A DNA stretch of 16,019 nt, from NCBI GenBank assembly GCA_963735035.1, contig CAVTJJ010000001.1:1-16019 (forward strand), read 5' to 3'. Shown piece by piece: positions 1 to 16,019 of the stretch. The notes beneath the pieces were generated by a model. That model was not told where the DNA came from, ran no database searches, and worked only from the letters and a program-made list of their open reading frames with translations. The DNA is from an uncultured candidate division Zixibacteria bacterium (GTDB lineage Bacteria > Zixibacteria > MSB-5A5 > GN15 > FEB-12). Both the position numbers and the translations under genes were made by a program. Position 1 is the first letter of the stretch; each line of letters begins with the position of its first letter.

Positions 1-1080
1 CTTGGTCGTATATATGAGAATCCTCGTCAGACCGGAGTCGCTTCGGTAGATCATGTCCACATCTTCTCCGTGCAGCACCGGGATGACCTCACCTTCCACC
101 ACCAGTGAAGCGACACCAAGCGAGTCAACGGTGTCGAAGTACACATTTCCAGACTGCGAGTACCAGTACACATGTGTCGGGTAATTTGCCGGAGTAATCT
201 GCTGACCTGGCTGAAGGCCTCCAACTATAACGCCAAAGAGATACTGATAGTCCTCAACCGTCAGAGGTACTTTGTCCCCATTGACATCAGAGGCCTGAGT
301 GGATCCCTCGACGTGTTCGCCGAAAACCGCCGTTCCGTCGATAAAATAGTACCTGAACATGACAGCGTCGGCGATTTCGTAGGAGATGCCGTTCAGATTG
401 ATGTCGCCCACGGTTTCGACGGGATCAACGCAAATGAAGCCAACCACGCCGTTGAAGTAATCAACACGACGAAGCGTCTTGTTGGGAAGTGGCGGGTTGT
501 CATGAACACACTCGTTCTGCGCACCACGATAGGTTGGGAACGGATCTTGTCCCGAAGACAGCGCGTAAACACCGTCAACATAGTCATATACCGACGATGA
601 CAGATACATTTCACTGCCATTGAAATTCGCCAGGGTGTTGTCACTGCAATCCGTCCAGAAGAAGCGGAGCGGCGCCCGCCAGCAATCATATCTCTCGTCA
701 TTCACAGTCAGGAACCTGAGAGTAGTAAGCGTTACGGGAACTGACGACACCCACCCTGGATTATTCGCGGCGCAGGCGACATTGGGATGGACGTCACCGT
801 TAACAGTCTCAGCAAGGCCGATAACGCGAACCCGCCCGGTGGGACAGGTCAGCTGGCAACCCGTGTCGACAGCGAAACGATAGGTGAAATACTCCCAGGC
901 GCAGGAGTCATAGAGGGCTCCTTCAGCGGCCAACTGGAATGTCAGCATTGATACGTCAAACCCTATCTGAAAATCAAAACCGCCCAGACCCTGAGCCTGG
1001 TCGAACTTATTCAGAGTGACCGGCACATCAACGATGTTGCCCCGGGCCAACGCTTCAACCGCCCCAATACGCACCGAGTA
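1..1080 (-). repeat. Protein-level repeat unit 3 (truncated by window edge)
   Basis: Begins YSVRIG at 1080. WEYFTY at ~897, 1198 nt from unit 2. Dockerin-like GDINLNGISYEIADAVMF...SDVNGDKVPLTVEDYQYL from 408 down. Confidence 0.8.
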
Positions 1081-4000: not shown

Positions 4001-4160
4001 CCACCACCTGGTAGAACATCGAATCGCAGTGAAAGCCCCGAACATATGGCGGGCAACCGGTGAAGAGTATTCCCGAAGTGCTGTCCTGGGCGGAGATATC
4101 CCCGGCCGACAGCCCCATAGCTAAGCAGCTAATTCCAACGAAAAGGCAGGTACGCCACAT
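1..4160 (-). CDS. Large secreted multidomain protein (scaffoldin-like): signal peptide, probable Ig-like domains, then >=3 repeats of cohesin-like + dockerin-like + beta-sandwich modules; 3' end outside window; apparent frameshifts at ~3200-2905 and ~1615-1390
   Basis: ATG at 4160 (MWRTCLFVGISCLAMGLSAGDISA, signal-peptide-like) preceded by CAGGGGT. ORFs 3177..4187, 3023..3367 and 1442..3022 join by homology to an unlisted open frame from ~1394 to the window edge (VFTWDTVTGVVSVSTTDTLGAVYMIVEGG...RILIYTTK). Motifs that recur three times: VPI/VTL..FD...GLxGFDF.I.YDAS.L.FQLAxEG.LY..CAWEYFTYRF and GDINxNGIxYEI/VADA. Confidence 0.8.
1081..2278 (-). repeat. Protein-level repeat unit 2 (~400 aa)
   Basis: Begins YEVRIG at 2278. 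WEYFTY at ~2095, 1204 nt from unit 1. Dockerin-like DIN.NGIPYEIADA (in a shifted frame)...ADINMDGQNTIADIVYL at ~1615-1450. Confidence 0.8.
2279..3482 (-). repeat. Protein-level repeat unit 1 (~400 aa)
   Basis: Begins YIVRLG at 3482. WEYFTY at ~3299. Dockerin-like GDININGIAYEVADAVMF...SDVTRDGKTLTIADLVFLI at ~2818-2630. Confidence 0.8.
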
Positions 4161-4361
4161 CGCAGACCCCTGTGTGAAGGTTGACACAATTTACTCGACC
4201 ATCCGATATCGTACGACACCGGATTATCAGAGCGCCTCTTTGAGAGCCTTTATCGCAGTGATCAATACTCGCCAGCAACCAATGGGTTACGCGGGTACAA
4301 TGAAGAATCGTCGAGCCAACCTCGGCAACCGGAGGCTTTTGCCCAGCGATCGCTACATCTT

Positions 4362-4389
4362 AATATATCACGCAAACCGGCTTTGTCAA
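4362..4389 (-). promoter_or_regulatory. Putative sigma70 promoter for the large secreted protein
   Basis: Minus strand has TTGACA (4389-4384), a 16-nt spacer ending in TGA (extended -10 TGn), then TATATT (4367-4362), ~200 nt upstream of the ATG at 4160. Confidence 0.55.
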
Positions 4390-4416
4390 TCCCCGATTGA
4401 GGATAGAGATAATCCC

Positions 4417-4445
4417 TTGGATACAAGCGAGTTAGTGTTTATTTT
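4417..4445 (+). promoter_or_regulatory. Weak candidate sigma70 promoter for the M64 peptidase
   Basis: TTGGAT-N17-TATTTT in an AT-rich stretch 65 nt upstream of the ATG at 4510. Confidence 0.25.
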
Positions 4446-4509
4446 GGACGGTCGTCAGGTCTCGCGGGAACTGTCCGATTATGTATATGTTACCCTGATT
4501 GGAGCAATG

Positions 4510-6345
4510 ATGTTCACCCGACTTCGCTGGCCTTCTTTCACAGTCGTTTTATTCCTCTCGATCATCACGGTCGGAACGGCGTTCGGCAGTACCAACTGGC
4601 AGTTGGTTTTTCGTTATGATGCCGGTTCGCTGCAGCTCCTGAAGGCCGACCCAATCAGAGCTACCGAAAAAACCGTACAGACGCCCGGACTCAACTCGGC
4701 TGCGATTCGCGTAGCCTATAATTGCGACTGGCTCGACGCCTCCGGCAAGGCGGTCTATGCTTCGTCCACCGAGCTGCCCCTCGGCGTTCTCGTCCCGATG
4801 AGGGATTCTCTCCCCTGTCGTTGGTATGTTCCCCAGACTGGAATTATAGTAGTCCGGCTAAGCGGGCCCGACCCCAAGGCAACTTTCGGAAACATTCGTC
4901 TGTCTCAGACCGGGGTGGTTAATCGAGCGCCCGCAGCGGTATCGCTCCCGGGCGCGTTTCAAACTCGGAACTGGAATTTCGATGCCACAAGCGCTATGGC
5001 TGTCGCCGCCCCTACCGTGGGTCCCGTTGGGGTACAGAAGATTCGCGATACCGGCCCGGACGCCAATCGGCTTGTGATCGTTGTCATGGGTGACGGTTAC
5101 ACGGCCACCGATTTGGGCACCGGAGCATTTACTACCGCAGCTGCGTCGCTCGGATCGGCCATTGAGGCCAAATCACCCTGGAATCTCCTGTTCGGGGCGA
5201 CCAATATGTACCGGGTGGACATCGAGAGCAACGAATCGGGAGCAGACAATGAAGTGGTCGGTGTCATGAAGGACACCTATCTGAACTCGTCGTTTTGGGT
5301 GAACGATATCGAGCGTCTGCTGGCGCTGACCGGCGACGGTTACTATAAGGCGATACTGGCGGCCGACGCTCAGGTGGGAGCAGGCGTCTGGGACATGATC
5401 TTAGTGCTGGTCAATTCCACCAAATACGGCGGCTCCGGTGGGGGCATTGCCGTATCATCGATAAACTCCGCTTCCTCGGAAGTCGTCATTCATGAGACCG
5501 GGCATACCATAGCCGATCTGGCCGATGAGTATGAGACGGCCTACCCCGGCTTTCCCCCGGGTGATGCCGAGCCCAATGTAGACTATGACTCCGCAGGTAC
5601 CGGTTTGAAATGGCTCACATGGGTGGACGCCGGCACTCCCCTGCCGACACCCGAAAGTTCGCCATATCTGACCACGGTCGGCGCTTTCGAAGGGGCTCGC
5701 TACCTCACGACCGGGATCTACCGCCCCTGGTACAATTGCGAAATGCGTTCGCTCAACCGTCCGTTTTGCCCGATTTGCCAGGAAGCCCACGTGATTAGCT
5801 TCACGAACCTGGTTTCGCTTACCGATGCGGTCACACCGGCGGTTGGAACCTACATCAGTGTCGGTGTCACGGGCGCGACATTCACCGCTACGCCTATTCC
5901 CGTAAGTGGTTTGCAGTACGAATGGCAGCTCGACGGCGTCCCAATCCCCGACTCTGTAAGCCCTAGTCTCAATATGACTCCTGACTTGATGACGGCCGCC
6001 ATCCAGACCCTTCGTCTGAATGTATCGCTGGTCACTCCGTTGGTACGGAAGACGACTATTTCGAGAAGTTATACCTGGCCGGTCCATAAGCAGATGCCTT
6101 CGTGCTGTATCGGCATTGTCGGCGACGCCAACAACAGCGGCGACTATGAACCGACGATTGGTGACATCTCGGCCCTCATCGAACACATCTTCATTTCTCA
6201 AATCCCTCTCGCATGCTACGAAGAGGCTGATATCAATCAATCGGGTGGCGCCAATCCGAGTACTGCCGACATCACGATCGGAGATATTTCTGCTTTGATC
6301 GACCACCTGTTTATCTCAGCTTTGCCCCTGCCCAACTGTTACTGA
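4510..6345 (+). CDS. Secreted M64-family (IgA peptidase-like) zinc metallopeptidase with C-terminal dockerin-like domain
   Basis: GGAG 5 nt before ATG 4510 and signal peptide MFTRLRWPSFTVVLFLSIITVGTAFG. M64 motifs: IVVMGDGYT, KYGGSG, HETGH..ADLADEY (5491 onward), FEGARY..GIYRP..NCEMRSL..PFCPIC. C-terminal duplicated motif GDANNSG..PTIGDISALIEHIF / ADINQSG..ITIGDISALIDHLF (6103-6342). Confidence 0.9.
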   Translation: MFTRLRWPSFTVVLFLSIITVGTAFGSTNWQLVFRYDAGSLQLLKADPIRATEKTVQTPGLNSAAIRVAYNCDWLDASGKAVYASSTELPLGVLVPMRDSLPCRWYVPQTGIIVVRLSGPDPKATFGNIRLSQTGVVNRAPAAVSLPGAFQTRNWNFDATSAMAVAAPTVGPVGVQKIRDTGPDANRLVIVVMGDGYTATDLGTGAFTTAAASLGSAIEAKSPWNLLFGATNMYRVDIESNESGADNEVVGVMKDTYLNSSFWVNDIERLLALTGDGYYKAILAADAQVGAGVWDMILVLVNSTKYGGSGGGIAVSSINSASSEVVIHETGHTIADLADEYETAYPGFPPGDAEPNVDYDSAGTGLKWLTWVDAGTPLPTPESSPYLTTVGAFEGARYLTTGIYRPWYNCEMRSLNRPFCPICQEAHVISFTNLVSLTDAVTPAVGTYISVGVTGATFTATPIPVSGLQYEWQLDGVPIPDSVSPSLNMTPDLMTAAIQTLRLNVSLVTPLVRKTTISRSYTWPVHKQMPSCCIGIVGDANNSGDYEPTIGDISALIEHIFISQIPLACYEEADINQSGGANPSTADITIGDISALIDHLFISALPLPNCY

Positions 6346-6370
6346 TTCGGCCTGCTCCTTTCTCCGACGC

Positions 6371-6399
6371 TTGACAAATCGGTCGTTCCGGGCAACATT
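6371..6399 (+). promoter_or_regulatory. Putative sigma70 promoter of the methyltransferase operon
   Basis: TTGACA (6371-6376)-N17-AACATT (6394-6399). RBS AAAGGAG at 6457-6463 precedes GTG 6471. Confidence 0.45.
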
Positions 6400-6470
6400 G
6401 GTGAGGTCCGGCGCCGCACTCGGCTATTGCGCCGGTCCTGTCATTCTGTCCCGGCGAAAGGAGCCGTCCC

Positions 6471-7928
6471 GTGAGACCGAGAGTCCAATTTCTCACCGAA
6501 GAACTCAGGAATCGGATCATATCAGAGGCCCGCGAACTGATCTGTCGGCTCGGCGTGGAGATCCACAACGACGGTGTGGTATCATTGTTGCACAGCCACG
6601 GCGCCAGAGTCGACCAGAACAGTAAGCGAGTATTCTACACCGAAGAGATTATTGACCGGAGCCTCAACGCGGCGCGCCACGGGTTTGCGCTCTACGATTC
6701 TATGGGACAACCAGCGGTCGATCTTTCCGGAGACAATGTCAACTACACGCCCGGTTCGGCCGCGATAAATCTACTCGACAGCGTTACCGACCTCCAGCGC
6801 CGCCCCACGACTTCTGACTATGTCGCCTATGCTCGCCTCATGACGGGGATGAAATATGTCGCGTCGCAATCGACCGCCATGATCCCGTGCGACGTCCATG
6901 AGCGGATATCGGACAGCTACCGGCTGTATGTCAGCCTGATGTATTGTGAGAAGCCGGTAGTAACGGGCACGTTTACGGTCGAGGCGTTCGAGATCATGAA
7001 GGATCTCCAGGTTATCGTGCGCGGATCGGAAAAGTCTCTGGCCGAGAAACCGCTGACGGTATTCTCCTGCTGTCCGACCTCACCGCTGAAATGGAGTGAT
7101 GTTACCTCGCAAAACCTCGTCGACTGTGCGAAATATGGCATCCCGGTCGAGTACATTGCCATGCCGCTCTCCGGATTCATGGCGCCCGTGACACTGGTAG
7201 GCACGCTCGTGCAGCATACCGCCGAGACTTTGAGCGGTCTGGCGATCAGCCAGTTGACCCGCCCGGGCACACCGGTACTTTGGGGCGGCTCGCCGGCCGT
7301 GTTCGATCTTCGCTACGAGACTACCCCCATGGGGGCGATCGAGACGATGATGATCGACTGTGCGTACAGTGAAATCGGTAAGCATCTCGGACTTCCAACT
7401 CAGGCGTATATCGCCCTTTCCGATGCCAAACTGCTCGACGCCCAGGCCGGACTCGAAACGTCGATGGGCGCTACGCTGGCGGCACTGGCCGGCATCAACA
7501 ACATTTCCGGACCGGGTATGCTCGATTTTGAGAGCTGTTTCAGTCTCGAAAAGTTGGTACTGGATAATGAAATCTGCGGCATGACCGCCCGGATGCTACA
7601 GGGCATCGAACCGCGCGAGGATTTCCCTTCCCTGCCTCGTTTCGAAGAACTTCTCCGCGAACAACACCTGCTGATTTCCGACCACACGCGAAAGTACCTT
7701 CATCAGGAGATCCTCTTCCCCGGGCCGGCGATCGACCGTGCCAATCGTTCGCGCTGGCAGGAAGAAGGCAGCCGGACGTTGAAGCAGCGCGCTACCGACA
7801 TTGTCAACAAACTGGTCGCTGAAGCCCGCCCGGTGCAACTGCCAGAGCAAGTGAAGAGAGAGCTTACCGCACGCATGAGCGCCGAAGCCCGAAAGTACGG
7901 TATGGAAAGATTGCCGAGCCTGTCGTGA
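6471..7928 (+). CDS. Trimethylamine methyltransferase (MttB) superfamily protein, non-pyrrolysine (MtgB-like amine:corrinoid methyltransferase)
   Basis: 485 aa with strong RBS. Family motifs: PTSPLKW, MPLSGFMAPVTLVGTLVQHTAETLSG, QLTRPGTPVLWG, SDAKLLDAQAGLE, GMLDFESCFSLEKLVLDNEI. No in-frame amber codon. Confidence 0.92.
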   Translation: MRPRVQFLTEELRNRIISEARELICRLGVEIHNDGVVSLLHSHGARVDQNSKRVFYTEEIIDRSLNAARHGFALYDSMGQPAVDLSGDNVNYTPGSAAINLLDSVTDLQRRPTTSDYVAYARLMTGMKYVASQSTAMIPCDVHERISDSYRLYVSLMYCEKPVVTGTFTVEAFEIMKDLQVIVRGSEKSLAEKPLTVFSCCPTSPLKWSDVTSQNLVDCAKYGIPVEYIAMPLSGFMAPVTLVGTLVQHTAETLSGLAISQLTRPGTPVLWGGSPAVFDLRYETTPMGAIETMMIDCAYSEIGKHLGLPTQAYIALSDAKLLDAQAGLETSMGATLAALAGINNISGPGMLDFESCFSLEKLVLDNEICGMTARMLQGIEPREDFPSLPRFEELLREQHLLISDHTRKYLHQEILFPGPAIDRANRSRWQEEGSRTLKQRATDIVNKLVAEARPVQLPEQVKRELTARMSAEARKYGMERLPSLS

Positions 7929-8647
7929 TAACCCATGAGATCGACATAAGCGTCGAGCAGGTGACCCCGACGGTAGAGGCCATCCTGGAAGCTCAGGGGA
8001 TGCCGGCTCATGCCCATACCGAACGGAATACCCGTTTGGCTGCACAGGCCGTAGAGGAGTTTTGCCGTCTGGCCCATCCGGAGGCAACTACCTGCGAGAT
8101 CACGCGTTCGAACTTTCAGAGTGTCTATGAGGGCGAAGGACACAATGCCGTTCCGGGCGTAATTGATCAAATACTTCCGGAAGCCGAACATTTGACTTTG
8201 TTCGCCTGCACCCTGGGACAACTAATCAGCGATGAGATTGCCGACCGGTTCGAAAGAAATGATTTCGCAGCGGCGACTATGCTCGACGCGGCGGCATCGG
8301 CTGGGGCTGATCAGGTAGCCGATTTGGTCGAGCGCTTCTGGGCGGAACAACTGAAAGCGACGGGTCATCTCGACGGCGACAAGGACATACTGCGGTTCAG
8401 CCCCGGTTACTGCGGCTGGCACATTTCGGGACAGAAGAAACTGTTCGACTTCCTGCAGCCGGAACGGATAGGTATCAGATTGAACGAGTCATATCTGATG
8501 CATCCGCTGAAATCGATCAGCGGCGTCCTGATTGTCGCGCCGTGGCAGGCATTCGACATTGACGACACATTTCCATTCTGCGCCGATTGCAAGACCCGTT
8601 CATGTCGCGATCGGTTCGCTGAGATTAGCAAAAGACATTCGCACTAA
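7925..8647 (+). CDS. Stand-alone vitamin B12-dependent methionine synthase activation (reactivation) domain protein
   Basis: Motifs LFACTLG, MLDAAASAGAD, RFSPGYCGW, IGIRLNESYLMHPLKSISG, and C-terminal CADCKTRSC. GTGA start/stop overlap with the upstream gene. Confidence 0.85.
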   Translation: MITHEIDISVEQVTPTVEAILEAQGMPAHAHTERNTRLAAQAVEEFCRLAHPEATTCEITRSNFQSVYEGEGHNAVPGVIDQILPEAEHLTLFACTLGQLISDEIADRFERNDFAAATMLDAAASAGADQVADLVERFWAEQLKATGHLDGDKDILRFSPGYCGWHISGQKKLFDFLQPERIGIRLNESYLMHPLKSISGVLIVAPWQAFDIDDTFPFCADCKTRSCRDRFAEISKRHSH

Positions 8648-8662
8648 TATAGGATCAGATGT

Positions 8663-9301
8663 ATGGACCTAATTCAGCAGATTTCCGAGGAACTTCAAAA
8701 AGGTAACGCCGAACAAGTGGCCTCGCTCACACGCCGGGCCATCGACGACCGAACCGACATCAAGGCGATTCTGGACCGCGGCCTTATTGGCGGGATGTCG
8801 GTAGTCGGTGAGAAGTTCAAGAATCACGAGATCTTTCTTCCCGATGTACTCATGGCGGCCAAGGCCATGTATGCCGGGCTCGACCTGCTCAAGCCGCTCC
8901 TGATAGCGGCCGGAATTCCGAACATCGGCAAAGTCGTGATCGGTACGGTTCAGGGCGATCTGCACGATATCGGCAAGAACCTGGTCGGTATCATGCTCAA
9001 GGGCGCCGGGTTTGAAGTGATAGATCTCGGCAAAGACGTCCCGCCGGAGAAATTTGTAGATACCGCCATCGCCGAGAAAGCCGACGTGATCGGTCTCTCC
9101 GCTCTGCTGACTACCACTATGCCAATGATGCAGAAGGTCATTGAGATCGCCCGGCAGAAAGGTATTTACGGCCGGACTCGCGTAGTGGTGGGCGGAGCGC
9201 CTCTCACCGCCGAGTACGCCCGCCTGATCGGCGCCGATGCGTATTGTTTCGACGGCGTCAAAGCGGTGGAATGTATCAAAGGCTTTATGGGAGTTCGCTG
9301 A
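8663..9301 (+). CDS. Cobalamin-binding corrinoid protein (MttC/MtgC-like; MetH cap + B12-binding domains)
   Basis: Cap motif GMSVVGEKF...IFLPDVLMAAKAM. B12-binding GTVQGDLHDIGKNLV (DxHxxG), GLSALLTTT and VVGGAP. Confidence 0.95.
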   Translation: MDLIQQISEELQKGNAEQVASLTRRAIDDRTDIKAILDRGLIGGMSVVGEKFKNHEIFLPDVLMAAKAMYAGLDLLKPLLIAAGIPNIGKVVIGTVQGDLHDIGKNLVGIMLKGAGFEVIDLGKDVPPEKFVDTAIAEKADVIGLSALLTTTMPMMQKVIEIARQKGIYGRTRVVVGGAPLTAEYARLIGADAYCFDGVKAVECIKGFMGVR

Positions 9302-9302
9302 G

Positions 9303-10196
9303 ATGTCTGCGCTTCTCGATCGCATTTCCGCCGGGACTGTCGTTCTCTGCGACGGCGCCATGGGCACGATGCTGATCGAACGGGGCCTGAAGCTCGGCGA
9401 CTGCCCGGAAGCCTGGAACCTGTCGCGTCCGGAAGTCCTGACCGAAATAGCCCGGCAATATGCCGAGGCGGGCGCGGATATGGTCGAGACCAACACTTTC
9501 GGAGGCACCCCGCTAAAACTGGCTCAGTATGGATTGGATTCACGGACAGAAGACATCACTAGAAGCGCCATCCGAGCCGCCCGGACCGGAGCCGGCGCCA
9601 ATGTTCTGGTTGCCCTTTCCTGCGGACCGACCGGTCGCTTGCTCAATCCCTTTGGCGACACCGAGCCGGAAGAAATTCTCGCCTCTTTCGAACGACAAAT
9701 CAAAGCGGCGGTTTCTGAAGGAATTGACGCTATTATTATCGAGACGATGACCGACTTAACCGAGGCCACCCTGGCCATTCGGGCGGCCAAACAGTGTGCC
9801 CCTGGAATTCCGGTGGCAGCCACGATGACATTTGACCCGACTCCCAGAGGCTTCGTTACGGTCATGGGCGTCACAATTGAACGAGCCGCCGCCGGATTGA
9901 TTGCGGCCGGAGCCGACCTGATCGGGTCCAATTGTGGCAACGGAATCGACCAGATGGTGCAGATAGCCAATGAGTTCCGCAAACAGTCCGCGACGCCTCT
10001 GATTATCCAGGCCAATGCCGGTCTTCCGGTGCTGAAAGACAACCGAGCGGTCTACACTGAGTCTCCCCCATTCATGGCCGAACGGGTGAGACAACTGCTT
10101 GAAGCGGGCGTTGCGATCATGGGAGGGTGTTGCGGGACCACCCCGGACCATATTGCGGCTTTTCGACGAGAAATCGACCGTGCACATGCCATCTGA
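9303..10196 (+). CDS. Homocysteine S-methyltransferase family protein (MetH N-terminal Zn domain, stand-alone)
   Basis: Motifs DGAMGTML, ETNTFG, IIIETM, GSNCG, QANAGLP and GGCCGTTPDHI (Zn ligands). ATG 9303 lies 1 nt after the upstream TGA, so it is a better start than 9237. Confidence 0.93.
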   Translation: MSALLDRISAGTVVLCDGAMGTMLIERGLKLGDCPEAWNLSRPEVLTEIARQYAEAGADMVETNTFGGTPLKLAQYGLDSRTEDITRSAIRAARTGAGANVLVALSCGPTGRLLNPFGDTEPEEILASFERQIKAAVSEGIDAIIIETMTDLTEATLAIRAAKQCAPGIPVAATMTFDPTPRGFVTVMGVTIERAAAGLIAAGADLIGSNCGNGIDQMVQIANEFRKQSATPLIIQANAGLPVLKDNRAVYTESPPFMAERVRQLLEAGVAIMGGCCGTTPDHIAAFRREIDRAHAI

Positions 10197-10345: not shown

Positions 10346-10456
10346 GCAAAGAGACCGGAAATGTCCGATATGAGGATTCTAAGTGACCCGCCTGGCGGGT
10401 AGCGGATGGGTCTGTCGTACGGCCTCCTTTGCGACAGCGAAAATGGTTGGGTTTCT

Positions 10457-12427
10457 ATGTTAATTAATAGACTGCTTGGCTTTGCCATACTATTGTCGGC
10501 TCTCCTCGGGTTCTCCGGATCATCTGTCCGGGCCGAGAATCTCGAGCCGCCTACGAAGAAAAATTGTCTGAGTTGCCACGAGAAGGACACCCAGAGAAAC
10601 GAAGAACGTGACCTGGCGTCGTTACTGGACTCATCATCGCACGCCGGGCTGGAATGCGTGGACTGTCACGCCGCCATCAAAGGTCTCCCCCACGACGAGA
10701 CAGTCGCGAAGGTCGACTGCGGAAGTTGTCACTCTGACATAGCGACAATCTATGATCGTCACGGACGGAAGAAACTCGGCACTGATCCGGATATTCCGGA
10801 ATGCGCCGATTGTCACGGCCATCACGACATACTAAGTTCCCAGAACCGCCGTTCGAGCACCAGCGCAGAGAACCTGCCTAACACCTGCGGCAGTTGCCAT
10901 GAAAACCTCGACTTGACCACCAAGCATGAGATTTTGTACGGCAATGCCATATCCGCCTTCAAGAGTTCGGTTCACGGACGCGCAATTACGGGAGGTGTTC
11001 TACTCGCTGCATCGTGCAACGACTGCCATTCCGCCGGAGGCACCGCCCACCGAATTTACGCTGCAAGTGACGCCCAATCGACGATCAACCACTTCAATAT
11101 TCCGAAGACCTGCGGACGGTGCCACTCGAGTGTGGAGCAGGAGTACTGGGAAGGTATACACGGCAAGCTGGTGGCGCGCGGCGAAGTCGATGCCCCGGTC
11201 TGCACCAACTGCCACGGTGAGCACGGCATCATTGCTACCTCCGACCCCCGGTCACCGGTCAGTCCGACCCGCGTGGCCGAAGCTACTTGTTCCCCGTGCC
11301 ACGAATCGGCCTACTTGAACGACAAGTACGGCATCCCCGGCGGTCGTTTGCGTTCATGGTACGACAGCTATCACGGATTGAAGAGCCGGGCCGGTGACGT
11401 GACCGTCGCCAACTGTGCCTCGTGTCACGGAGCGCACATGGTACTCCCCCGAGCCGATGCTCGCTCGTCGGTCAATCCCGACAACCTTCAAAAGACCTGC
11501 GGCCATTGTCATCAGGGGATTTCTTCGGAAGTGGCCAGCACCCCCATTCACGGCGAACCGGGGGTGTCACGGACTGAGGCCGCCAACGTCATTCAGAAGG
11601 TATATGTCATTGCGATTATAGTCATTATTGGCTCAATGCTGTTGCATTGGCTGATTGATCTAAGAAAACAGATCAAAAAGGTTCGCAACAAACTTCGCTT
11701 CAGACGGATGACGGTCAATGAGGTCGCCCAGCACTACTTCCTGATGATTACATTCATCGTCCTGGTGGTCACCGGCTTCTCGCTACGATACAAAGAATCC
11801 GGCTGGGTTACCTGGCTATTCGGCTGGGAAGGCGGCTCGCAGCTTCGCGGTGAAATTCACCGAGTGGCAGCCGTTTTGTTTACGATCGCGTCTTTCTGGC
11901 ACATGTTCTACCTGATTTCTCCGCGCGGCCGCCAGTTCCTGAAGGACATGATGCCGACCAAGAATGACTTTGTCCAATTCCTGGCGATGATACGCTTCAA
12001 TCTCGGAATGATTCCCGAGAAACCGGGTTTCGGCCGTTTCTCATACGTCGAGAAAGCCGAGTACTGGGCGCTGGTCTGGGGGACGGTTGTGATGGCCGCA
12101 ACCGGCTTCTTCCTCTGGTTCGAGAATCTGGCGGTGGCCTGGTTCCCCAAGGGAGCGCTCGACGTCATCCTGGTTATACATTATTATGAAGCCTGGCTCG
12201 CCACGCTGGCGATCTTGATCTGGCACATGTACTCCACCGTTTTCAGCCCCGGAGTATATCCGATGAATACCGCATGGATCGACGGCCAAATGCCGCTATC
12301 GGTATATCATCACGAGCATTCGGATGATCCGGAACTCAAGACCCCGGAGATGGCCGCCAAAGTGGCCGCGGCCAAGGCCGGAGCGGAAGAACCAAAGATT
12401 GATTACGGCCCTGCGGCGAGGATGTAG
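10457..12427 (+). CDS. CbcL-like inner-membrane multiheme cytochrome c (11 CxxCH) fused to a cytochrome b (FdnI/HydC-type) membrane domain
   Basis: Signal peptide from ATG 10457 (MLINRLLGFAILLSALLGFSGSSVRA); alternative start 10406. 11 CxxCH counted. C-terminal TM helices with candidate heme-b histidines (QHYFL, EIHRV, VIHYYEA, IWHMY) and RFSYVEKAEYWALVWG. Confidence 0.9.
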   Translation: MLINRLLGFAILLSALLGFSGSSVRAENLEPPTKKNCLSCHEKDTQRNEERDLASLLDSSSHAGLECVDCHAAIKGLPHDETVAKVDCGSCHSDIATIYDRHGRKKLGTDPDIPECADCHGHHDILSSQNRRSSTSAENLPNTCGSCHENLDLTTKHEILYGNAISAFKSSVHGRAITGGVLLAASCNDCHSAGGTAHRIYAASDAQSTINHFNIPKTCGRCHSSVEQEYWEGIHGKLVARGEVDAPVCTNCHGEHGIIATSDPRSPVSPTRVAEATCSPCHESAYLNDKYGIPGGRLRSWYDSYHGLKSRAGDVTVANCASCHGAHMVLPRADARSSVNPDNLQKTCGHCHQGISSEVASTPIHGEPGVSRTEAANVIQKVYVIAIIVIIGSMLLHWLIDLRKQIKKVRNKLRFRRMTVNEVAQHYFLMITFIVLVVTGFSLRYKESGWVTWLFGWEGGSQLRGEIHRVAAVLFTIASFWHMFYLISPRGRQFLKDMMPTKNDFVQFLAMIRFNLGMIPEKPGFGRFSYVEKAEYWALVWGTVVMAATGFFLWFENLAVAWFPKGALDVILVIHYYEAWLATLAILIWHMYSTVFSPGVYPMNTAWIDGQMPLSVYHHEHSDDPELKTPEMAAKVAAAKAGAEEPKIDYGPAARM

Positions 12428-12457: not shown

Positions 12458-15262
12458 TTGAGTCGTCAGTCGAACATACATCAGATTCTTTTCGCTGCGC
12501 TGTTCGGCCTGGCGCTGTTGCTAATCCCGGCCGTTGCGACCTCGCAGACCAACGACGACTGCATGGGCTGCCATGCGGACAAGGAACTAACCGGTGAACG
12601 CAACGGTCGAACCTTCTCGGCTTATGTCGACGCCAAGCGTTTCGCCCGCTCCAGCCACAAAGACCTCGATTGCATCAATTGTCATGCGTTTCTCGAAGGC
12701 GTAGAGGATTTCCCGCACAGCGACGTCAAACCGGTGCCGGTGGATTGCTCTACCTGTCACGATGACGTCGCCAAGCTCTACAATCAGAGTCTGCACGGTA
12801 AAGCCGCCGCCGCCGGCGAGGCCCTGGCGCCCCGATGCTGGGATTGCCACGGCTCCCATGATATCGAGCCGCCCAGCGCCGAGGATTCGCGGGTAACTAA
12901 GTTCAACATTCCCGTTATGTGCGGTCGGTGCCACAAAGAGGGTTCGCCGGTAGACCGCACCTATAATATCCCACAGGACAGCATCCTCGATCATTATTCC
13001 ATCTCGATGCACGGCGAAGGGCTCTACAAGCGCGGCCTGACCGTAACCGCCGTCTGCACCGATTGCCATACCGCCCATTTTGTCCTGCCACACACCGATC
13101 CCAGATCGAGCATCTTCCGCAACAATGTCGCCACGACATGCCAGAAATGTCACGGTCGTATCAAGGAAGTGCATCGGAAGGTCATTCGCGGCGAGATGTG
13201 GGAAAAGGAGCCGGACAAGGTTCCGGTCTGCGTCGACTGTCATCAGCCACACATGGTACGGCGCGTCTTTTACGACGAGGTATCCGACACCGAATGCATG
13301 AAGTGCCATGCGGATCGCAATCTCAGCATGATTCGAGACGGCGATACGATTTCCCTCTTCGTTGACACGCTCGAAACGCACAGTTCGATTCATCGGGCCA
13401 AGGCCTGCGCCCAGTGCCATACCAACGCCGATCCGGGCATGAAGCGACCCTGCGCCACAGTGCCCAACAAGGTTGACTGTGGCATCTGCCATACCGAAGT
13501 CGTGGACATGTTCGCTACTTCCACACACGGTATCCTCGACGATCGCGGAGATCCAAATGCTCCCAAGTGTGTAGATTGCCACGGCCGACACAACGTTCGT
13601 GGTCGGCGCGACCCCAAGTCACCTACTTTCCCGACCAATGTCCCGGCCATGTGCGAGTATTGCCATCAACACGGCGGGCAGGCGGCCATAAGGCGCGAAG
13701 CACGCGGCTTGACGGCCGATGCCGGCAAGTATCCCGAAAGTATTCACGGCAAAGGCTTGTTGGAAAGCGGTCTGGTCGTGACGGCTATGTGCACGGACTG
13801 CCACACGGCCCATCATGTGCTCCCGAAAGATAACCCGGAATCAAGCGTCAATCATAAGAACGTACCGCATACTTGCGCCAAGTGCCACAACGGTATTTAC
13901 GAAAAGTACGTCAAGAGCGTCCATGCCGATACGCTGGGAGTCTCCGACAAGAAGCTGCCCAACTGCGCCGACTGCCACCGTTCGCATACCATCGTCCGCA
14001 CCGACAGCCAGGGCTTCAAACAGCAGATTCTGAATCAATGCGGCAGTTGTCATATAGATGTAACCGAGACTTATTTCCAGACCTTCCACGGCAAAGTAAA
14101 CCAGCTCGGTGGGACGGTGGCGGCCAAGTGTCACGATTGTCATGGCTCGCACGACATCTTGCCACCGGACGATCCTAATTCGCACCTGTCACGTAATAAT
14201 ATCGTGGCCACGTGCGGCCAATGCCATGAGGGATCGCACCGCCGGTTCGCCGGGTACCTGACCCATGCGACACACCACGATCGGATCAAGTACCCGATTC
14301 TGTTCTACGTCTTCTGGTTCATGACCTGTCTGTTGGTCGGTACGCTCGCAGTAGCGACTGCCCACACCCTTCTTTGGTTGCCGCGCTCGTTCCAGATGAT
14401 GCGCCAACACCGGGCGATGCTGACCGAAGGTCATGATCGACGAATATATCGTCGCTTTACTCGGCAGCAGAGCGTCCTGCACATCCTCATGGTCACCAGC
14501 TTCATAGGCCTGGCGATCACGGGCATGACGCTGAAGTTCTCCTATCTTGGCTGGGCCCAGTGGTTATCCGAACTGTTGGGCGGTTTCGAATCAGCCGGGT
14601 TCATTCATCGCACCTGCGCGGTGATTACGGCGATCTACTTCTTCTCTCATATCTACTCCCTTATTAAGATGAAGCGCCGCGAGAAGAAGACCTGGATGGG
14701 CCTGCTGTTGGGCAAGGACTCCATGCTGCCGTCCTTGACCGACCTCAAGGAGATTTGGGGCACATTCAAGTGGTTTATCGGCCGAGGGCCGCGCCCCAGC
14801 TATGGTCGCTGGACGTACTGGGAGAAGTTCGACTACTTTGCGGTCTTCTGGGGCGTCGCGATCATCGGCTCCACCGGCCTGATGCTCTGGTTCCCTGAGT
14901 TCTTCACTCATTTTCTGCCGGGTTGGATGATCAACGTGGCAACCATCATCCATTCGGATGAGGCGCTCCTTGCGACCGCTTTCATCTTTACGGTCCATTT
15001 CTTCAACACGCATTTCCGGCCGGATCGCTTCCCTATGGATACGGTTATCTTTACCGGTCGCATGACGGTCGAGGAACTGAAAGCCGACCGACCGCGCGAG
15101 TATGAGGAGCTCGTTGAATCAGGCGAACTCGACAAGAACCTGACCGAGCCGCTGCCTGATACCGTGGTCAAAGCTATGAAAGTTTTTGGAGCTGTGGCCC
15201 TCATAGTAGGGCTCTCGCTTATTGTATTGGTCATCTACGCCGAGGTGTTCGGCTATCGTTGA
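12458..15262 (+). CDS. CbcL-like multiheme cytochrome c (19 CxxCH) fused to a cytochrome b membrane domain
   Basis: TTG start after GAGGT, then a signal peptide. 19 CxxCH counted. CbcL-type motifs YLTHATHHDRIKYP, RWTYWEKFDYFAVFWG, IIHSDEALLA, VHFFNTHFRP and FPMDTVIFTG. Confidence 0.92.
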   Translation: MSRQSNIHQILFAALFGLALLLIPAVATSQTNDDCMGCHADKELTGERNGRTFSAYVDAKRFARSSHKDLDCINCHAFLEGVEDFPHSDVKPVPVDCSTCHDDVAKLYNQSLHGKAAAAGEALAPRCWDCHGSHDIEPPSAEDSRVTKFNIPVMCGRCHKEGSPVDRTYNIPQDSILDHYSISMHGEGLYKRGLTVTAVCTDCHTAHFVLPHTDPRSSIFRNNVATTCQKCHGRIKEVHRKVIRGEMWEKEPDKVPVCVDCHQPHMVRRVFYDEVSDTECMKCHADRNLSMIRDGDTISLFVDTLETHSSIHRAKACAQCHTNADPGMKRPCATVPNKVDCGICHTEVVDMFATSTHGILDDRGDPNAPKCVDCHGRHNVRGRRDPKSPTFPTNVPAMCEYCHQHGGQAAIRREARGLTADAGKYPESIHGKGLLESGLVVTAMCTDCHTAHHVLPKDNPESSVNHKNVPHTCAKCHNGIYEKYVKSVHADTLGVSDKKLPNCADCHRSHTIVRTDSQGFKQQILNQCGSCHIDVTETYFQTFHGKVNQLGGTVAAKCHDCHGSHDILPPDDPNSHLSRNNIVATCGQCHEGSHRRFAGYLTHATHHDRIKYPILFYVFWFMTCLLVGTLAVATAHTLLWLPRSFQMMRQHRAMLTEGHDRRIYRRFTRQQSVLHILMVTSFIGLAITGMTLKFSYLGWAQWLSELLGGFESAGFIHRTCAVITAIYFFSHIYSLIKMKRREKKTWMGLLLGKDSMLPSLTDLKEIWGTFKWFIGRGPRPSYGRWTYWEKFDYFAVFWGVAIIGSTGLMLWFPEFFTHFLPGWMINVATIIHSDEALLATAFIFTVHFFNTHFRPDRFPMDTVIFTGRMTVEELKADRPREYEELVESGELDKNLTEPLPDTVVKAMKVFGAVALIVGLSLIVLVIYAEVFGYR
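12560..14029 (+). repeat. Internal tandem duplication of an 8-heme module (period 735 nt / 245 aa)
   Basis: Heme motifs 1/9 (12560/13295), 6/14 (13055/13790) and 8/16 (13229/13964) are each 735 nt apart. HGEGLYKRGLTVTAVCTDCHTAHFVLP matches HGKGLLESGLVVTAMCTDCHTAHHVLP. Confidence 0.85.
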
Positions 15263-15263
15263 C

Positions 15264-15300
15264 CGCGGAACCGGCGCCTCGGAGCGCCGCACGATCCGCG
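15264..15300 (+). other. GC-rich intergenic stem-loop without U-tract
   Basis: CGCGGA-ac-CGGCGC-ctcgga-GCGCCG-cacga-TCCGCG, a nested inverted repeat just after the stop codon. Confidence 0.45.
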
Positions 15301-15330
15301 CGTCCGTTCAGAAAGGATGATAAGGGACAT

Positions 15331-15986
15331 ATGGAGCGCAAACTGCCGCTTGCCTATTATAACTGGATCAGTATTATCGGCGCCTACATTGCATCGGTAT
15401 CACTTCTGCTGATTGTACTGTTCCTGGGCATCAGTATATTCTTTGAGTTCGCCTCAAACCCGTATCTGGGCATCGTCCAGTTCTTGATTCTTCCCGGGAG
15501 CTTGATGCTCGGGCTGGTGCTGATCCCCCTCGGTGCCTGGCGTCAGCGTCGTCGAATCCGCAAAGGTGTCGGCCAGGAACGCCGCCAGTGGCCGCGCATC
15601 GATTTCAACCTGAAGAGTCACCGGAACGCAGCAGCTATCTTTGCTTTTGGCAGCGTACTCGTCGTGTTTGTCTCGGCCGTGGTCAGCTATCAGACTTTCC
15701 ATTACACCGAGTCAGTGGAGTTTTGCGGGACCACCTGTCATCAGGTCATGAAACCGGAGTACACCGCTTACCAGAATTCTCCGCACGCTCGTGTTGCTTG
15801 CGCCTCGTGTCACATCGGTTCGGGCGCCAACTGGTATGTAAGATCCAAATTGTCGGGTGCATACCAGGTATATGCCGTCATTGCCGGCAACTATCCACGG
15901 CCGATCCCCACTCCGGTGGCGAATCTGCGTCCGGCGCAGGAGACTTGCGAGCAGTGTCATTGGCCTGAGAAATTCTTCGGAGCCCA
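15331..15986 (+). CDS. ImcH-like NapC/NirT-family inner-membrane multiheme cytochrome c (3' truncated)
   Basis: Not in the ORF track because there is no stop in the window. Manual translation from ATG 15331 (after AAGGGA): MERKLPLAYYNWISIIG...NPYLGIVQFLILP...three hydrophobic helices...YTESVEFCGTTCHQVMKPEYTAYQNSPHARVACASCHIGSGANWYVRSKLSG...LRPAQETCEQCHWPEKF. Confidence 0.88.
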
Positions 15987-16019
15987 AGCAATACGCAACG
16001 GAACCAAGCAACGCCAACA
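15987..16019 (+). other. Probable untrimmed Oxford Nanopore ligation-adapter remnant (technical artefact)
   Basis: AGCAATACGCAACGGAACCAAG matches adapter AGCAATACGTAACTGAACGAAG (recalled sequence) at 19/22 positions, at the very end of the sequence. Confidence 0.75.

What the first reader, a model, noticed from the sequence alone, without database searches (positions are those of the whole stretch)
6471..10196. Split B12 methionine synthase with an MttB-family amine demethylase in place of the folate module
Seen: four tightly packed genes (GTGA overlap, 15-nt and 1-nt gaps) encode three MetH modules as separate proteins (reactivation, cap/B12, homocysteine-binding). The pterin-binding module is missing from the operon and an MttB-family methyltransferase is present. 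Known: MetH takes its methyl group from methyl-THF, while MttB/MtgB enzymes methylate corrinoid proteins from methylated amines, usually passing it to THF or CoM with RamA/RACE activators. Inference: folate-independent methionine synthesis (amine -> corrinoid -> homocysteine) with SAM-type reactivation. As I recall, a comparable glycine-betaine route exists in marine alphaproteobacteria, so the concept is not wholly new, but this compact operon and lineage may be.
Basis: partly seen in the sequence, partly recalled or inferred. Interest (0 to 1): 0.7.

Follow-up and report, generated by a model that had tools for sequence, protein, structure and literature searches.

The report
MttB-fed folate-free methionine synthase cassette
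Four tightly packed genes in a probable Zixibacteria genome look like a vitamin-B12 relay that moves a methyl group from an unidentified non-folate compound onto homocysteine to make methionine, an idea published in 2022 and, as far as I could find, never tested.

Summary
The four genes mttB-like, MetH-type activation protein, corrinoid protein and homocysteine S-methyltransferase sit exactly as described, with their catalytic motifs intact.

All four genes occur together in 48 of 80 related loci from more than ten phyla. Williams et al. 2022 (PMC9324843) already described this cluster and proposed the same idea. My literature searches found no biochemical test of it. This scan has also met it before on other DNA: 39 earlier findings hold my search words.

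What this window adds:
- The 97%-complete genome has no MetH, MetE or MTHFR, no pterin module except FolP, no RamA, and no MetX or MetA. It does have SAH hydrolase. The cassette is therefore its only recognisable route from homocysteine to methionine, and probably recycles homocysteine without making it de novo.
- None of the four glycine-betaine-binding residues of MtgB is kept. The donor is unknown and probably not a betaine.
- A same-genus genome keeps only the homocysteine gene at the syntenic site, so that enzyme may also work alone.
- The activation protein carries four invariant cysteines that T. maritima TM0269, the one homologue I compared, does not show. They may form a metal site.

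Verdict: a new member of a published but untested kind. Interest is moderate.

The parts
6346..6470 (+). Upstream intergenic region of the operon, 125 nt. It holds an AGGAG before the GTG start.
   Evidence: Sequence read. No riboswitch or other Rfam family was found at E<=1 in this stretch. No promoter-like site passed the simple scan here. A TTGACA at 6371-6376 is visible by eye only.
6471..7928 (+). Non-pyrrolysine MttB-superfamily methyltransferase, 485 aa. Proposed role: methyl donor:corrinoid methyltransferase, donor unknown.
   Evidence: PF06253 2.4e-73. TIGR02369 scores 334.8 bits, below its 525 cut-off. PDB: MtgB 9yce 7.3e-52, MttB 7xcl 4e-48. Leu316 is at the Pyl334 position. Pocket residues S96, Q311, L316, S346, D352, F353 and E354 are kept in 68-72 of 72 orthologues. 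Relatives in many phyla are 63-76% identical.
7925..8647 (+). Stand-alone MetH-type (SAM-binding) reactivation protein, 240 aa, with four invariant cysteines.
   Evidence: PF02965 4.6e-12. A profile of 45 orthologues matches T. maritima TM0269 (1j6r) at 1.2e-10 over residues 6-200. AF2 model pLDDT 95.3. Foldseek: 1j6r_A E 3.4e-10, TM 0.80 normalised to the target; E. coli MetH reactivation domain 6bm5 8.7e-8. R157-F-S-P-G-Y162 fits the RxxxGY motif, which I recall and did not take from a call. C163, C219, C222 and C227 are invariant.
8663..9301 (+). Corrinoid (cobamide-binding) protein, 212 aa, cap plus Rossmann B12 domain. Proposed methyl carrier.
   Evidence: PF02607 2.7e-19 and PF02310 5e-31. 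D99-x-H101-x-x-G104, S146-x-L148 and G177-G178 are invariant in 33 orthologues. It is the only B12-binding_2 match in the genome.
9303..10196 (+). MetH-type homocysteine S-methyltransferase, 297 aa from the ATG at 9303. Proposed role: methyl-corrinoid:homocysteine methyltransferase.
   Evidence: PF02574 6.8e-67. T. maritima MetH Hcy module 1q7m 1.6e-53. C211, C276 and C277, the presumed Zn ligands, are invariant in 32 sequences. It is the only PF02574 match in the genome.

Best explanation
The four genes encode a folate-independent, cobamide-dependent homocysteine methyltransferase system.

Proposed steps:
1. The MttB-like TIM-barrel enzyme takes a methyl group from an unidentified, already activated methyl compound. 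This is most likely a cationic methylated compound without a carboxylate. It is neither glycine betaine nor methyl-THF. The methyl goes onto Co(I) of the corrinoid protein.
2. The MetH-type Hcy module, with its Zn site, passes the methyl from methyl-Co(III) to homocysteine, giving methionine.
3. When the cobamide is oxidised to Co(II), the stand-alone MetH-type activation protein restores it by reductive methylation with SAM. It may use a metal centre held by its four invariant cysteines.

In this genome the homocysteine probably comes from SAH hydrolase. The cassette would then close the activated methyl cycle and bring outside methyl groups into the SAM pool. It would not complete a de novo methionine pathway.

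What is shown: gene content, motifs, conserved synteny and genome context. What is inferred: every transfer step, the direction of methyl flow, the donor class, the metal site and the physiological role.
For: 1. Anatomy and motifs.
- All four domains are present and tightly coupled.
- DxHxxG, SxL and GG are invariant in the corrinoid protein.
- Three Cys aligned with the T. maritima MetH Hcy module are invariant.
- The activation protein has the TM0269/MetH reactivation fold and RFSPGY.

2. Conserved linkage.
- 48 of 80 loci carrying an MttB orthologue (63-76% identity, more than 10 phyla) hold all four genes. 39 of them are complete and in the same order.
- In the phylum sample, 18 of 19 other genomes with an orthologue have hcy about 2.2 kb downstream on the same strand.
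- No other neighbour family recurs in more than 4-5 loci.

3. Folate independence.
- The own genome is 96.9% complete in 6 contigs. Its only Pterin_bind match is DHPS.
- It has no MTHFR, no MetE and no second Hcy module.
- In the same order, MTHFR and a MetH-sized ORF occur in exactly the same 14 of 43 genomes.
- 7 genomes with the MttB orthologue have neither of these, nor MetE; in 6 of them hcy lies beside it.
- Among 36 cassette genomes from other phyla, 10 lack MTHFR, a MetH-sized pterin ORF and MetE. One of the 10 is a closed chromosome.

4. No ATP-type activase was found (RACo_C_ter/RamA). The only PF02965 match in the genome is in the operon.

5. Hcy source. SAH hydrolase is present. 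MetX and MetA were not found.

6. Predicted hcy + corrinoid complex: weak support.
- Score 0.53, best of 3 controls 0.02.
- The mark was reached by 116 of 157 solved complexes and 2 of 215 mismatched pairs.
- At 0.60 or under it was reached by only 18 of those 157, and by both mismatches that passed.
- The runs agree in at least 60% of contacts; partner pLDDT is at least 77.
- MetH structures with both domains are solved, so the pass may reflect likeness only.
Against: - My literature searches found no biochemical or genetic test of this cassette.
- The donor is unknown. No transporter or regulator is conserved next to the cassette. No SAM or B12 riboswitch lies upstream.
- hcy orthologues (54-68% identity) nest inside the cassette clade yet stand alone in G064, G097, G102 and G105. 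G064 is the same genus and the site is syntenic.
- No MttB orthologue or activation domain was found in those four genomes. No B12-binding_2 protein was found in three of them; G102 has one match elsewhere. The Hcy enzyme may therefore not need the corrinoid.
- 20 of 80 loci with room lack at least one partner: 7 have mttB+cor only and 6 have mttB alone.
- 22 of 43 genomes of the same order have no recognisable methionine synthase at all. Lacking MetH and MetE here does not prove the cassette is needed.
- 26 of the 36 cassette genomes from other phyla also have MTHFR, and at least 19 of the 36 have a MetH-sized ORF. The cassette is usually an addition and not a replacement.
- CobS and CbiC were not found, so the system would depend on imported cobamide.
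Confidence: 0.7

Rival explanations
1. The homocysteine S-methyltransferase works alone and takes the methyl directly from a small donor, such as S-methylmethionine or SAM (as MmuM does) or a betaine (as BHMT does). The mttB-act-cor trio would be a separate demethylation module whose acceptor is something else. Its linkage to hcy would reflect shared regulation only.
For: Four hcy orthologues (54-68% identity) keep the invariant Cys and nest within the cassette clade. They stand alone in G064, G097, G102 and G105. No MttB orthologue or activation domain was found in those genomes. No B12-binding_2 protein was found in three of them. NCBIfam also matches the BHMT model PRK07534 (203.5 bits, below its cut-off of 338) and the YitJ-type model.
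Against: The order mttB-act-cor-hcy, with overlaps or tiny gaps, is kept across more than 10 phyla. The best solved relative is the Hcy module of MetH (1q7m, 1.6e-53). BHMT scores 1.8e-19 and MmuM-type 5dml 7.9e-14. No other methyl acceptor module of pterin type exists in the genome. The predicted hcy-corrinoid complex got weak support. The stand-alone copies could be leftovers of recent deletions.
Confidence: 0.12
2. The relay works as proposed, but the donor is glycine betaine or another carboxylate or phosphate quaternary amine, or trimethylamine.
For: All characterised non-Pyl MttB-superfamily members use quaternary amines (abstract and Results part 1 of PMC13080624; Discussion of PMC12478193). 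The corrinoid protein's best NCBIfam model is MtgC. The region 171-450 is close to true MttB (4e-48).
Against: MtgB's Y97, R312, H348 and F356 are S96, Q311, S346 and E354 here, and these are nearly invariant in 72 orthologues. The paper reports R312 conserved in MtcB, MtpB, MthB and MtyB, and R312L as inactive. There is no pyrrolysine (Leu316), and MttB's Tyr364 is Ser346, so the TMA mechanism is not available. BCCT was found in 0 of 21 MttB-orthologue genomes of the phylum sample. OpuAC was found in 4 of 21 against 8 of 31 genomes without the orthologue. Neither was found in the own genome.
Confidence: 0.1
3. It is an ordinary split MetH that still uses methyl-THF, with a pterin-binding subunit and MTHFR encoded elsewhere or missed. 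The MttB-like protein would be accessory.
For: Split MetH systems exist. P. inhibens and R. pomeroyi have a separate pterin subunit that is essential. The genome is not closed: 6 contigs, 96.9% complete.
Against: The only Pterin_bind match is DHPS (334.5 bits to TIGR01496). There is no MTHFR. The same holds for seven relatives of the order, 96-100% complete, and for a closed chromosome, G007. A non-canonical MTHFR was not searched for.
Confidence: 0.03

Closest known systems
Four-gene cluster of Ca. Electryoneota MAGs and 'diverse bacteria' (Williams et al. 2022, Environ Microbiol, PMC9324843; I read passages only)
   Same: The four families are the same: a non-Pyl MttB/MtgB homologue, a Hcy S-methyltransferase, a corrinoid protein and an activation protein. 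So is the hypothesis of corrinoid-dependent methionine synthesis from an unknown donor. Ca. Hatepunaea meridiana is among my loci (L053; MttB 65% identical, all four genes present).
   Different: Those MAGs also encode a full-length MetH. This genome has no MetH, MetE or MTHFR. In L053, two extra ORFs lie between cor and hcy. Their Table S4 and Figs S2-S3 are in a PDF supplement that I did not open. I therefore cannot say whether Zixibacteria are listed there.
MtgBCDE of Ruegeria pomeroyi / three-part MetH of Phaeobacter inhibens (Mausz et al. 2025, PMC12478193, Results part 1 and Discussion read; Price et al. 2018, PMC5764234, passages)
   Same: A pfam06253 methyltransferase, a shared stand-alone corrinoid protein and a stand-alone Hcy module (MtgE) link the demethylation of a methylated compound to methionine synthesis.
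   Different: There the pterin subunit MtgD is essential for both functions. The genes are dispersed, reactivation uses a RamA-like protein plus DUF1638, and the donor is glycine betaine. Here there is no pterin subunit, the operon is compact, the activation protein is MetH-type, and the betaine-binding residues are absent.
MtgB/MtgC/MtgA of Desulfitobacterium hafniense (glycine betaine:THF methyl transfer; PMC13080624, abstract and Results part 1 read)
   Same: An MttB-superfamily TIM barrel methylates a cognate corrinoid protein. MtgB is the best full-length solved relative (9yce, 7.3e-52).
   Different: The acceptor module there is a pterin-binding THF methyltransferase, whereas here it is a MetH-type Hcy module. 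The residues Y97, R312, H348 and F356 are not kept.
MetH of E. coli, T. thermophilus and T. maritima (T. maritima has a separate activation protein, TM0269)
   Same: The Hcy module, the B12 His-on motif and the SAM-type reactivation fold are shared. TM0269 is the best solved relative of the activation protein.
   Different: There is no folate module. The corrinoid protein is of the methylotroph type. The activation protein has a C163 plus CxxCxxxxC tail. TM0269 has Gly at the C163 position, and its chain ends about 12 residues after the aligned region.
Folate-independent core methionine synthases MesA-D (Price et al. 2021, PMC7857596; abstract from the search listing and one passage seen)
   Same: The concept is the same: methionine synthesis without methyl-folate. 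According to the abstract, these enzymes probably rely on corrinoid proteins in vivo.
   Different: Those are relatives of MetE. PF01717 gives no match in this genome. That paper's text holds none of the terms MttB, PF06253 or trimethylamine.

Membership tests
Williams-2022 cluster (MttB/MtgB homologue + Hcy-MT + corrinoid protein + activation protein) | All four gene families are adjacent on one strand. | tested here: met
Williams-2022 cluster (MttB/MtgB homologue + Hcy-MT + corrinoid protein + activation protein) | The MttB homologue lacks pyrrolysine and belongs to the same clade as the Ca. Electryoneota protein. | tested here: met
   No in-frame stop; Leu316 at the Pyl position. 65% identity to the L053 (Ca. 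Hatepunaea meridiana) protein, with the same gene set. I built no tree of the MttB family.
MttB, pyrrolysine trimethylamine methyltransferase (TIGR02369) | Pyl334 encoded by an in-frame UAG, and Tyr364. | tested here: not met
   Leu316 (CTT at 7416-7418) and Ser346 at the aligned positions. 334.8 bits against a cut-off of 525.
MtgB, glycine betaine:corrinoid methyltransferase | Betaine-binding residues Y97, R312, H348 and F356. | tested here: not met
   S96, Q311, S346 and E354, by the phmmer alignment to 9yce (chain index +2 gives the paper's numbering). The four substituting residues are conserved in 68-72 of 72 orthologues. The residues come from PMC13080624.
MetH, cobalamin-dependent methionine synthase | Hcy module with three Zn-binding cysteines. 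| tested here: met
   C211, C276 and C277 are invariant and aligned to the Cys of 1q7m. That these are the Zn ligands is recalled.
MetH, cobalamin-dependent methionine synthase | B12 domain with DxHxxG, SxL and GG. | tested here: met
MetH, cobalamin-dependent methionine synthase | Pterin-binding (methyl-THF) module. | tested here: not met
   Not in the operon. The only genomic PF00809 match is DHPS.
MetH, cobalamin-dependent methionine synthase | SAM-binding reactivation domain. | tested here: met
   PF02965. Fold match to 1j6r, 6bm5 and 1msk. RFSPGY is present. SAM binding itself was not tested.
MtgBCDE (R. pomeroyi type) | Essential pterin subunit MtgD, and RamA-like plus DUF1638 reactivation. 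| tested here: not met
   No pterin subunit. No RACo_C_ter match. DUF1638 was not searched for.
BHMT / MmuM-type direct homocysteine methyltransferases | Acts without a corrinoid, with a donor-binding site for betaine or SMM/SAM. | tested here: inconclusive
   Below the cut-offs of PRK07534 (203.5 against 338) and PRK09485 (87.2 against 215). Stand-alone orthologues exist in relatives. Donor-site residues were not examined.
Core-MetE (MesA-D) | Meth_synt_2 (PF01717) catalytic domain. | tested here: not met
   No match in the genome.

The most novel reading that the evidence does not exclude
This cassette would be a fifth, MetH-derived kind of folate-independent methionine synthase. In a set of Zixibacteria that lack MTHFR, MetH and MetE, it would be the only entry of methyl groups into the SAM cycle. 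It would draw them from a so far unknown class of methyl donor, without a carboxylate, recognised by an invariant Ser/Gln/Ser/Asp/Glu pocket. It would be kept active by a new type of SAM-dependent reactivation protein. That protein would carry its own Cys4 metal centre, possibly Fe-S, as the electron entry point in place of flavodoxin docking.
Probability: 0.3. Interest if true: 0.75.

Novelty: new member of a known kind. Interest (0 to 1): 0.5.

Why it matters
If the relay works as read, methionine regeneration in many uncultured sediment and soil phyla can bypass folate entirely. It would tie the SAM cycle to an environmental methyl compound and to imported cobamide. The phyla include Zixibacteria, Ignavibacteria, Acidobacteriota, Planctomycetota, Gemmatimonadota and Marinimicrobia.

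That would change auxotrophy predictions for these MAGs. Pathway predictions that count only MetH and MetE would score genomes like this one as lacking a methionine synthase. It would also add a substrate class to the MttB superfamily.

This window supplies a clean test case, because the genome has no competing methionine synthase and no MTHFR. The Cys4 signature of the activation protein gives a concrete, cheap biochemical question.

Tried and rejected
- **Riboswitch or other RNA upstream.** Rfam at E<=1 over the whole window gave only a PYLIS_3 match inside the gene and a chance snoRNA match.
- **Promoter and terminator scan.** Nothing above the shuffles.
- **Conserved neighbours that might name the donor.** Clustering 805 ORFs of 80 loci plus the window gave no family beyond the four in more than 4-5 loci. 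Some of those are antisense shadow ORFs. The neighbours of mttB+cor-only loci are unrelated housekeeping genes, with no pterin methyltransferase among them.
- **Transporter association.** BCCT and OpuAC show no link with the cassette.
- **Remnant of cor upstream of the lone hcy in the same-genus genome.** A by-eye resemblance is not above chance. 285 of 300 shuffles reach the score over the operon, and 265 of 1000 over the cor 3' end. The polarity of the change (loss in G064 or gain here) therefore rests on the tree only.
- **Complementary distribution of cassette and MetH/MetE within the order.** It is not clean, since 22 of 43 genomes have neither.
- **Expression.** The look-up of sequencing runs listed no run, so no RNA holder is listed.
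- **Tree.** The careful tree search did not finish, and the quick tree is what I cite.
- **Not done.** The pocket geometry and the Cys-Cys distances could not be measured, because no model coordinates are returned. DUF1638, non-canonical MTHFR, flavodoxin/ferredoxin and cobamide transporters were not searched for.
- **Unused tools.** The search for homologous proteins, the listing of cluster members and the protein-atlas search were not used.

Full report
**1.

The window has four + strand ORFs at 6471-7928, 7925-8647, 8663-9301 and 9303-10196.

Pfam assigns the four proteins as follows:
- MTTB, 2.4e-73.
- Met_synt_B12, 4.6e-12, covering residues 80-206 only.
- B12-binding_2 plus B12-binding.
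- S-methyl_trans, 6.8e-67.

No pterin-binding domain is in the operon. The MttB-like frame has no internal stop.

**2. The parts look functional.**

*Corrinoid protein.* It has DxHxxG (D99, H101, G104), SxL and GG, all invariant in 33 orthologues. It is closer to methylotroph corrinoid proteins than to MetH's B12 module. NCBIfam gives MtgC_2 208.7 bits, and PDB 1y80 scores 2.7e-53 and MttC 2.7e-38. MetH's module scores 138.1 bits and 1bmt 2.7e-28.

*Hcy enzyme.* It is nearest to the Hcy module of T. maritima MetH (1q7m, 1.6e-53). C211, C276 and C277 are invariant in 32 sequences.

*Activation protein.*
- A profile of 45 orthologues matches the stand-alone T. maritima activation protein TM0269 (1j6r) at 1.2e-10 over residues 6-200.
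- The AF2 model has mean pLDDT 95.3.
- Foldseek finds 1j6r_A at E 3.4e-10 with a TM-score of 0.80 normalised to the target. The E. coli, T. thermophilus and human MetH reactivation domains follow.
- It keeps R157-FSPG-Y162, which fits the RxxxGY SAM motif. I recall that motif; it comes from no call.

**3. It is not MttB and not MtgB.**

- In the phmmer alignment to M. barkeri MttB (7xcl), the pyrrolysine position 334 is Leu316 here (codon CTT at 7416-7418). MttB's Tyr364 is Ser346.
- The four residues shown by mutagenesis and a ligand-bound structure to bind glycine betaine in MtgB are Y97, R312, H348 and F356 (PMC13080624, abstract and Results part 1 read). They align to S96, Q311, S346 and E354.
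- That paper states that R312, the partner of the acid group, is conserved in MtcB, MtpB, MthB and MtyB.
- In 72 orthologues of the window protein the residues are nearly invariant:

| Residue | Kept in |
|---|---|
| S96 | 70 of 72 |
| Q311 | 72 of 72 |
| L316 | 72 of 72 |
| S346 | 68 of 72 |
| D352 | 72 of 72 |
| F353 | 72 of 72 |
| E354 | 71 of 72 |

The clade therefore has one specific substrate, and that substrate is unlikely to be a betaine. TMA is also unlikely, since the pyrrolysine mechanism is not available.

- BCCT transporters were found in 0 of 21 MttB-orthologue genomes of the phylum sample, and in 1 of all 52 genomes searched.
- OpuAC was found in 4 of those 21, against 8 of 31 genomes without the orthologue.
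- The own genome has neither.

**4. The cassette is conserved and self-contained.**

A scan of GTDB species genomes found 397 relatives of the MttB-like protein. The best 80 were kept. They are 63-76% identical and come from Zixibacteria (the closest), Ignavibacteria, Acidobacteriota, Planctomycetota, KSB1, Gemmatimonadota, Marinimicrobia, Cloacimonadota, Calditrichota, Lentisphaeria, WOR-3, Actinomycetota and others.

Of the 80 loci:

| Class | Loci |
|---|---|
| All four genes | 48 |
| Cut by a contig end within 1.2 kb | 12 |
| Have room but lack at least one partner | 20 |

The 48 break down as follows:
- 39 are complete in the order mttB-act-cor-hcy.
- 2 Bacteroidota loci have act first.
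- 3 have only a partial act match.
- 4 have hcy cut by the contig end.

The 20 break down as follows:
- 7 have mttB+cor only.
- 6 have mttB alone.
- 4 lack hcy.
- 2 lack act.
- 1 lacks cor.

No other neighbour family recurs in more than 4-5 loci.

**5. Genome context.**

The window is the start of contig 1 of a 3.61-Mb, 6-contig genome rated 96.9% complete. In that genome:
- The only Pterin_bind match is DHPS.
- The operon's Hcy module, MttB, B12-binding_2 and PF02965 matches are each the only one in the genome.
- MetE, MTHFR and RamA-type RACo_C_ter give no match.
- SAH hydrolase is present.
- A cystathionine beta-synthase-like and a gamma-lyase-like gene pair is present, which suggests reverse transsulfuration.
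- MetX and MetA were not found.
- CobS and CbiC were not found.

I therefore read the cassette as the only route from homocysteine to methionine. It would act on homocysteine released from SAH, in an organism that must import cobamide and, very likely, methionine or its carbon skeleton.

**6. Lineage survey.**

I searched 80 high-quality genomes of the same phylum.
- 19 have an orthologue at 66% identity or more.
- In 18 of these, hcy lies about 2.2 kb downstream on the same strand.
- In the remaining one (G089), mttB and hcy are on different contigs.

In the window's order (43 genomes besides the window's own):
- MetE is found in 0.
- MTHFR and a MetH-sized ORF occur in exactly the same 14 genomes. 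In the pairs I checked they lie about 3 kb apart on the same contig.
- 11 have the MttB orthologue. Of these, 4 also have MetH+MTHFR and 7 have neither.
- 22 have no recognisable methionine synthase.

These numbers support folate independence, because the cassette occurs without any MTHFR. They also show that this lineage often lives without a methionine synthase. The cassette's indispensability is therefore not shown.

I also searched 36 cassette genomes from other phyla.
- 10 lack MTHFR, a MetH-sized pterin ORF and MetE. One of the 10 is a closed chromosome.
- 26 have MTHFR.
- At least 19 have a MetH-sized ORF.
- 4 have a strong MetE match.

**7. A result against the simplest reading.**

The same-genus genome G064 is rated 100% complete, and its locus is syntenic with the window's. 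A peptidase M64 gene is followed after 52 nt by an hcy gene that is 68% identical. Farther on lies a cytochrome c7 / cytochrome b gene. mttB, act and cor are absent from the locus. No MttB orthologue, B12-binding_2 domain or PF02965 domain was found anywhere in that genome.

In a quick maximum-likelihood tree of 54 Hcy enzymes (the careful search did not finish):
- This lone copy is sister to the window's (SH-aLRT 96).
- Three more lone copies (G097, G102, G105) fall inside the cassette clade (SH-aLRT 96).
- One of them is sister to a cassette copy (SH-aLRT 99).

Two readings are possible. Partners may be lost repeatedly and recently, or the Hcy enzyme has a use of its own. I found no remnant of cor upstream of the lone gene above chance.

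The predicted hcy-corrinoid complex got weak support:
- Score 0.53, best of 3 controls 0.02.
- The mark was reached by 116 of 157 solved complexes and 2 of 215 mismatched pairs.
- At 0.60 or under it was reached by only 18 of those 157, and by both mismatches that passed.
- The runs agree in at least 60% of contacts, and the partner's pLDDT is at least 77.
- Solved MetH structures may explain the pass.

**8. A feature my searches did not find noted before.**

The activation protein has four invariant cysteines. C163 follows directly after the RxxxGY motif (PGYCGW). The other three form a C-terminal C219-x2-C222-x4-C227.

TM0269 has Gly at the first position, and its chain ends about 12 residues after the aligned region.

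A profile search of 1.84 billion representative proteins found 278 clusters at E<=1e-30. Of the best 150, 145 are 220 aa or longer. Among these 145:
- 144 have CxxCxxxxC in the last 60 residues.
- 138 have PGYCGW.
- 137 have both.

I infer a metal site, either Fe-S or Zn. If it is Fe-S, it could be where the electron for reductive methylation enters. As I recall, ThiC binds a [4Fe-4S] cluster with a CX2CX4C motif. That is only a lead. I tested nothing about this site. A word search of this scan's notes found no earlier mention.

**9. Prior art.**

- Williams et al. 2022 (PMC9324843, passages read) describe this very cluster in Ca. Electryoneota and state that it is found 'in diverse bacteria'. 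They hypothesise a novel corrinoid-dependent methionine synthesis from an unknown donor. Their MAGs also have MetH. Their Table S4 and Figs S2-S3 are in a PDF supplement that I did not open.
- Mausz et al. 2025 (PMC12478193, outline, Results part 1 and Discussion read) show by genetics that R. pomeroyi MtgC and the pterin subunit MtgD serve both betaine demethylation and methionine synthesis. It is folate-linked.
- Price et al. 2021 on core-MetE families does not hold the terms MttB, PF06253 or trimethylamine.
- A 2025 paper proposes that MttB in Zixibacteria and other phyla feeds HgcA. It rests on docking only (PMC12484752, passages).
- Six full-text searches found no biochemical or genetic test of the cassette.
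- This scan has met the cassette before on other DNA. 39 earlier findings hold my search words, and 19 windows share short words with the MttB sequence. Those I saw reached the same reading.

**10. Verdict.**

The kind is already published as a hypothesis, so this is a new member of a known but untested kind.

This window adds four things:
- A clean genome context with no competing pathway.
- The reading of the cassette as homocysteine recycling.
- The lone-hcy sister locus.
- The Cys4 signature of the activation protein.

Noticed in passing
window 7416-7515 (+): Rfam PYLIS_3 (pyrrolysine insertion sequence of mttB) matches above its gathering score: 42.4 against 38 bits, E 5.5e-6. The match starts exactly at codon Leu316 (CTT), the position of the UAG/Pyl codon in true mttB. 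There is no UAG here, so I read it as coding-sequence similarity to mttB and not as a working PYLIS.
   Followed up: partly
window 7925-8647 (+), residues C163, C219, C222, C227: The activation protein has four invariant cysteines, in PGYCGW and a C-terminal CxxCxxxxC. T. maritima TM0269 has Gly at the first position and its chain ends about 12 residues after the aligned region. Both motifs are present in 137 of 145 full-length representatives of the family. This may be a metal (Fe-S or Zn) site.
   Followed up: partly
L084 (G064:C1:66000-82000), 5702-8489: The same-genus genome has the syntenic locus with peptidase M64 followed directly by hcy (68% identical). It has no mttB, act or cor there, and none was found elsewhere in that genome.
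   Followed up: yes
window 10406-12427, 12458-15262, 15259-16017 (+): Downstream of the operon lie three genes for multihaem cytochromes c. Two carry c7/c3-type domains fused to cytochrome b561-like membrane domains, and the third is NapC/NirT-like. Together they look like an electron-transfer module. A similar c7/b561 gene lies in the sister locus.
   Followed up: no
window 4060-6345 (+); 1-1566 (-): Upstream lie a 761-aa peptidase M64 (IgA-peptidase family) protein and a cohesin-domain protein. Two large ORFs (1442-3022 and 3177-4187, - strand) have no Pfam match.
   Followed up: no
L001 (G000:C4:1040989-1044714), 6-800 and 742-1275: FtsH is read as two overlapping ORFs, covering model positions 199-419 and 445-597. 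This is either a frameshift or an assembly error. It lies just upstream of folP and cdaA.
   Followed up: no
G100:C73:165-3365 and G120:C12:21517-24521: Two genomes of the phylum have more distant MttB homologues (49% and 46% identity) with an hcy gene upstream instead of downstream on the same contig. This may be a second MttB subfamily linked to a Hcy module.
   Followed up: no
phylum sample, e.g. G066:C4:123524-127202: In other families of the phylum, a 610-660-aa Hcy-MT/MTHFR fusion (YitJ-like) sits next to two tandem ~330-aa Meth_synt_2 ORFs, which look like a split or core MetE. In the window's order, metH and metF always occur together.
   Followed up: no
L039, L043 (Bacteroidota); L046, L053, L055: There are variants of the cassette. 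In two Bacteroidota loci act lies before mttB. In L046 and L055 extra ORFs are inserted between mttB and act, and in L053 (Ca. Hatepunaea) between cor and hcy. None of the inserted ORFs that I scanned, those of L053 and L055, has a Pfam match; the two in L046 were not scanned.
   Followed up: partly
G000 whole genome and 8 relatives: No CobS and no CbiC were found in the own genome or in the cassette-only relatives. They are probably cobamide auxotrophs, so the cassette would depend on imported cobamide.
   Followed up: partly
L100 (G000:C4:27113-31225), 2-1102 (-): An ORF next to the CBS-like and CGL-like pair matches the C-terminal part of a TIR-domain anti-phage retron reverse transcriptase model (3.4e-21, well below its cut-off).
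   Followed up: no
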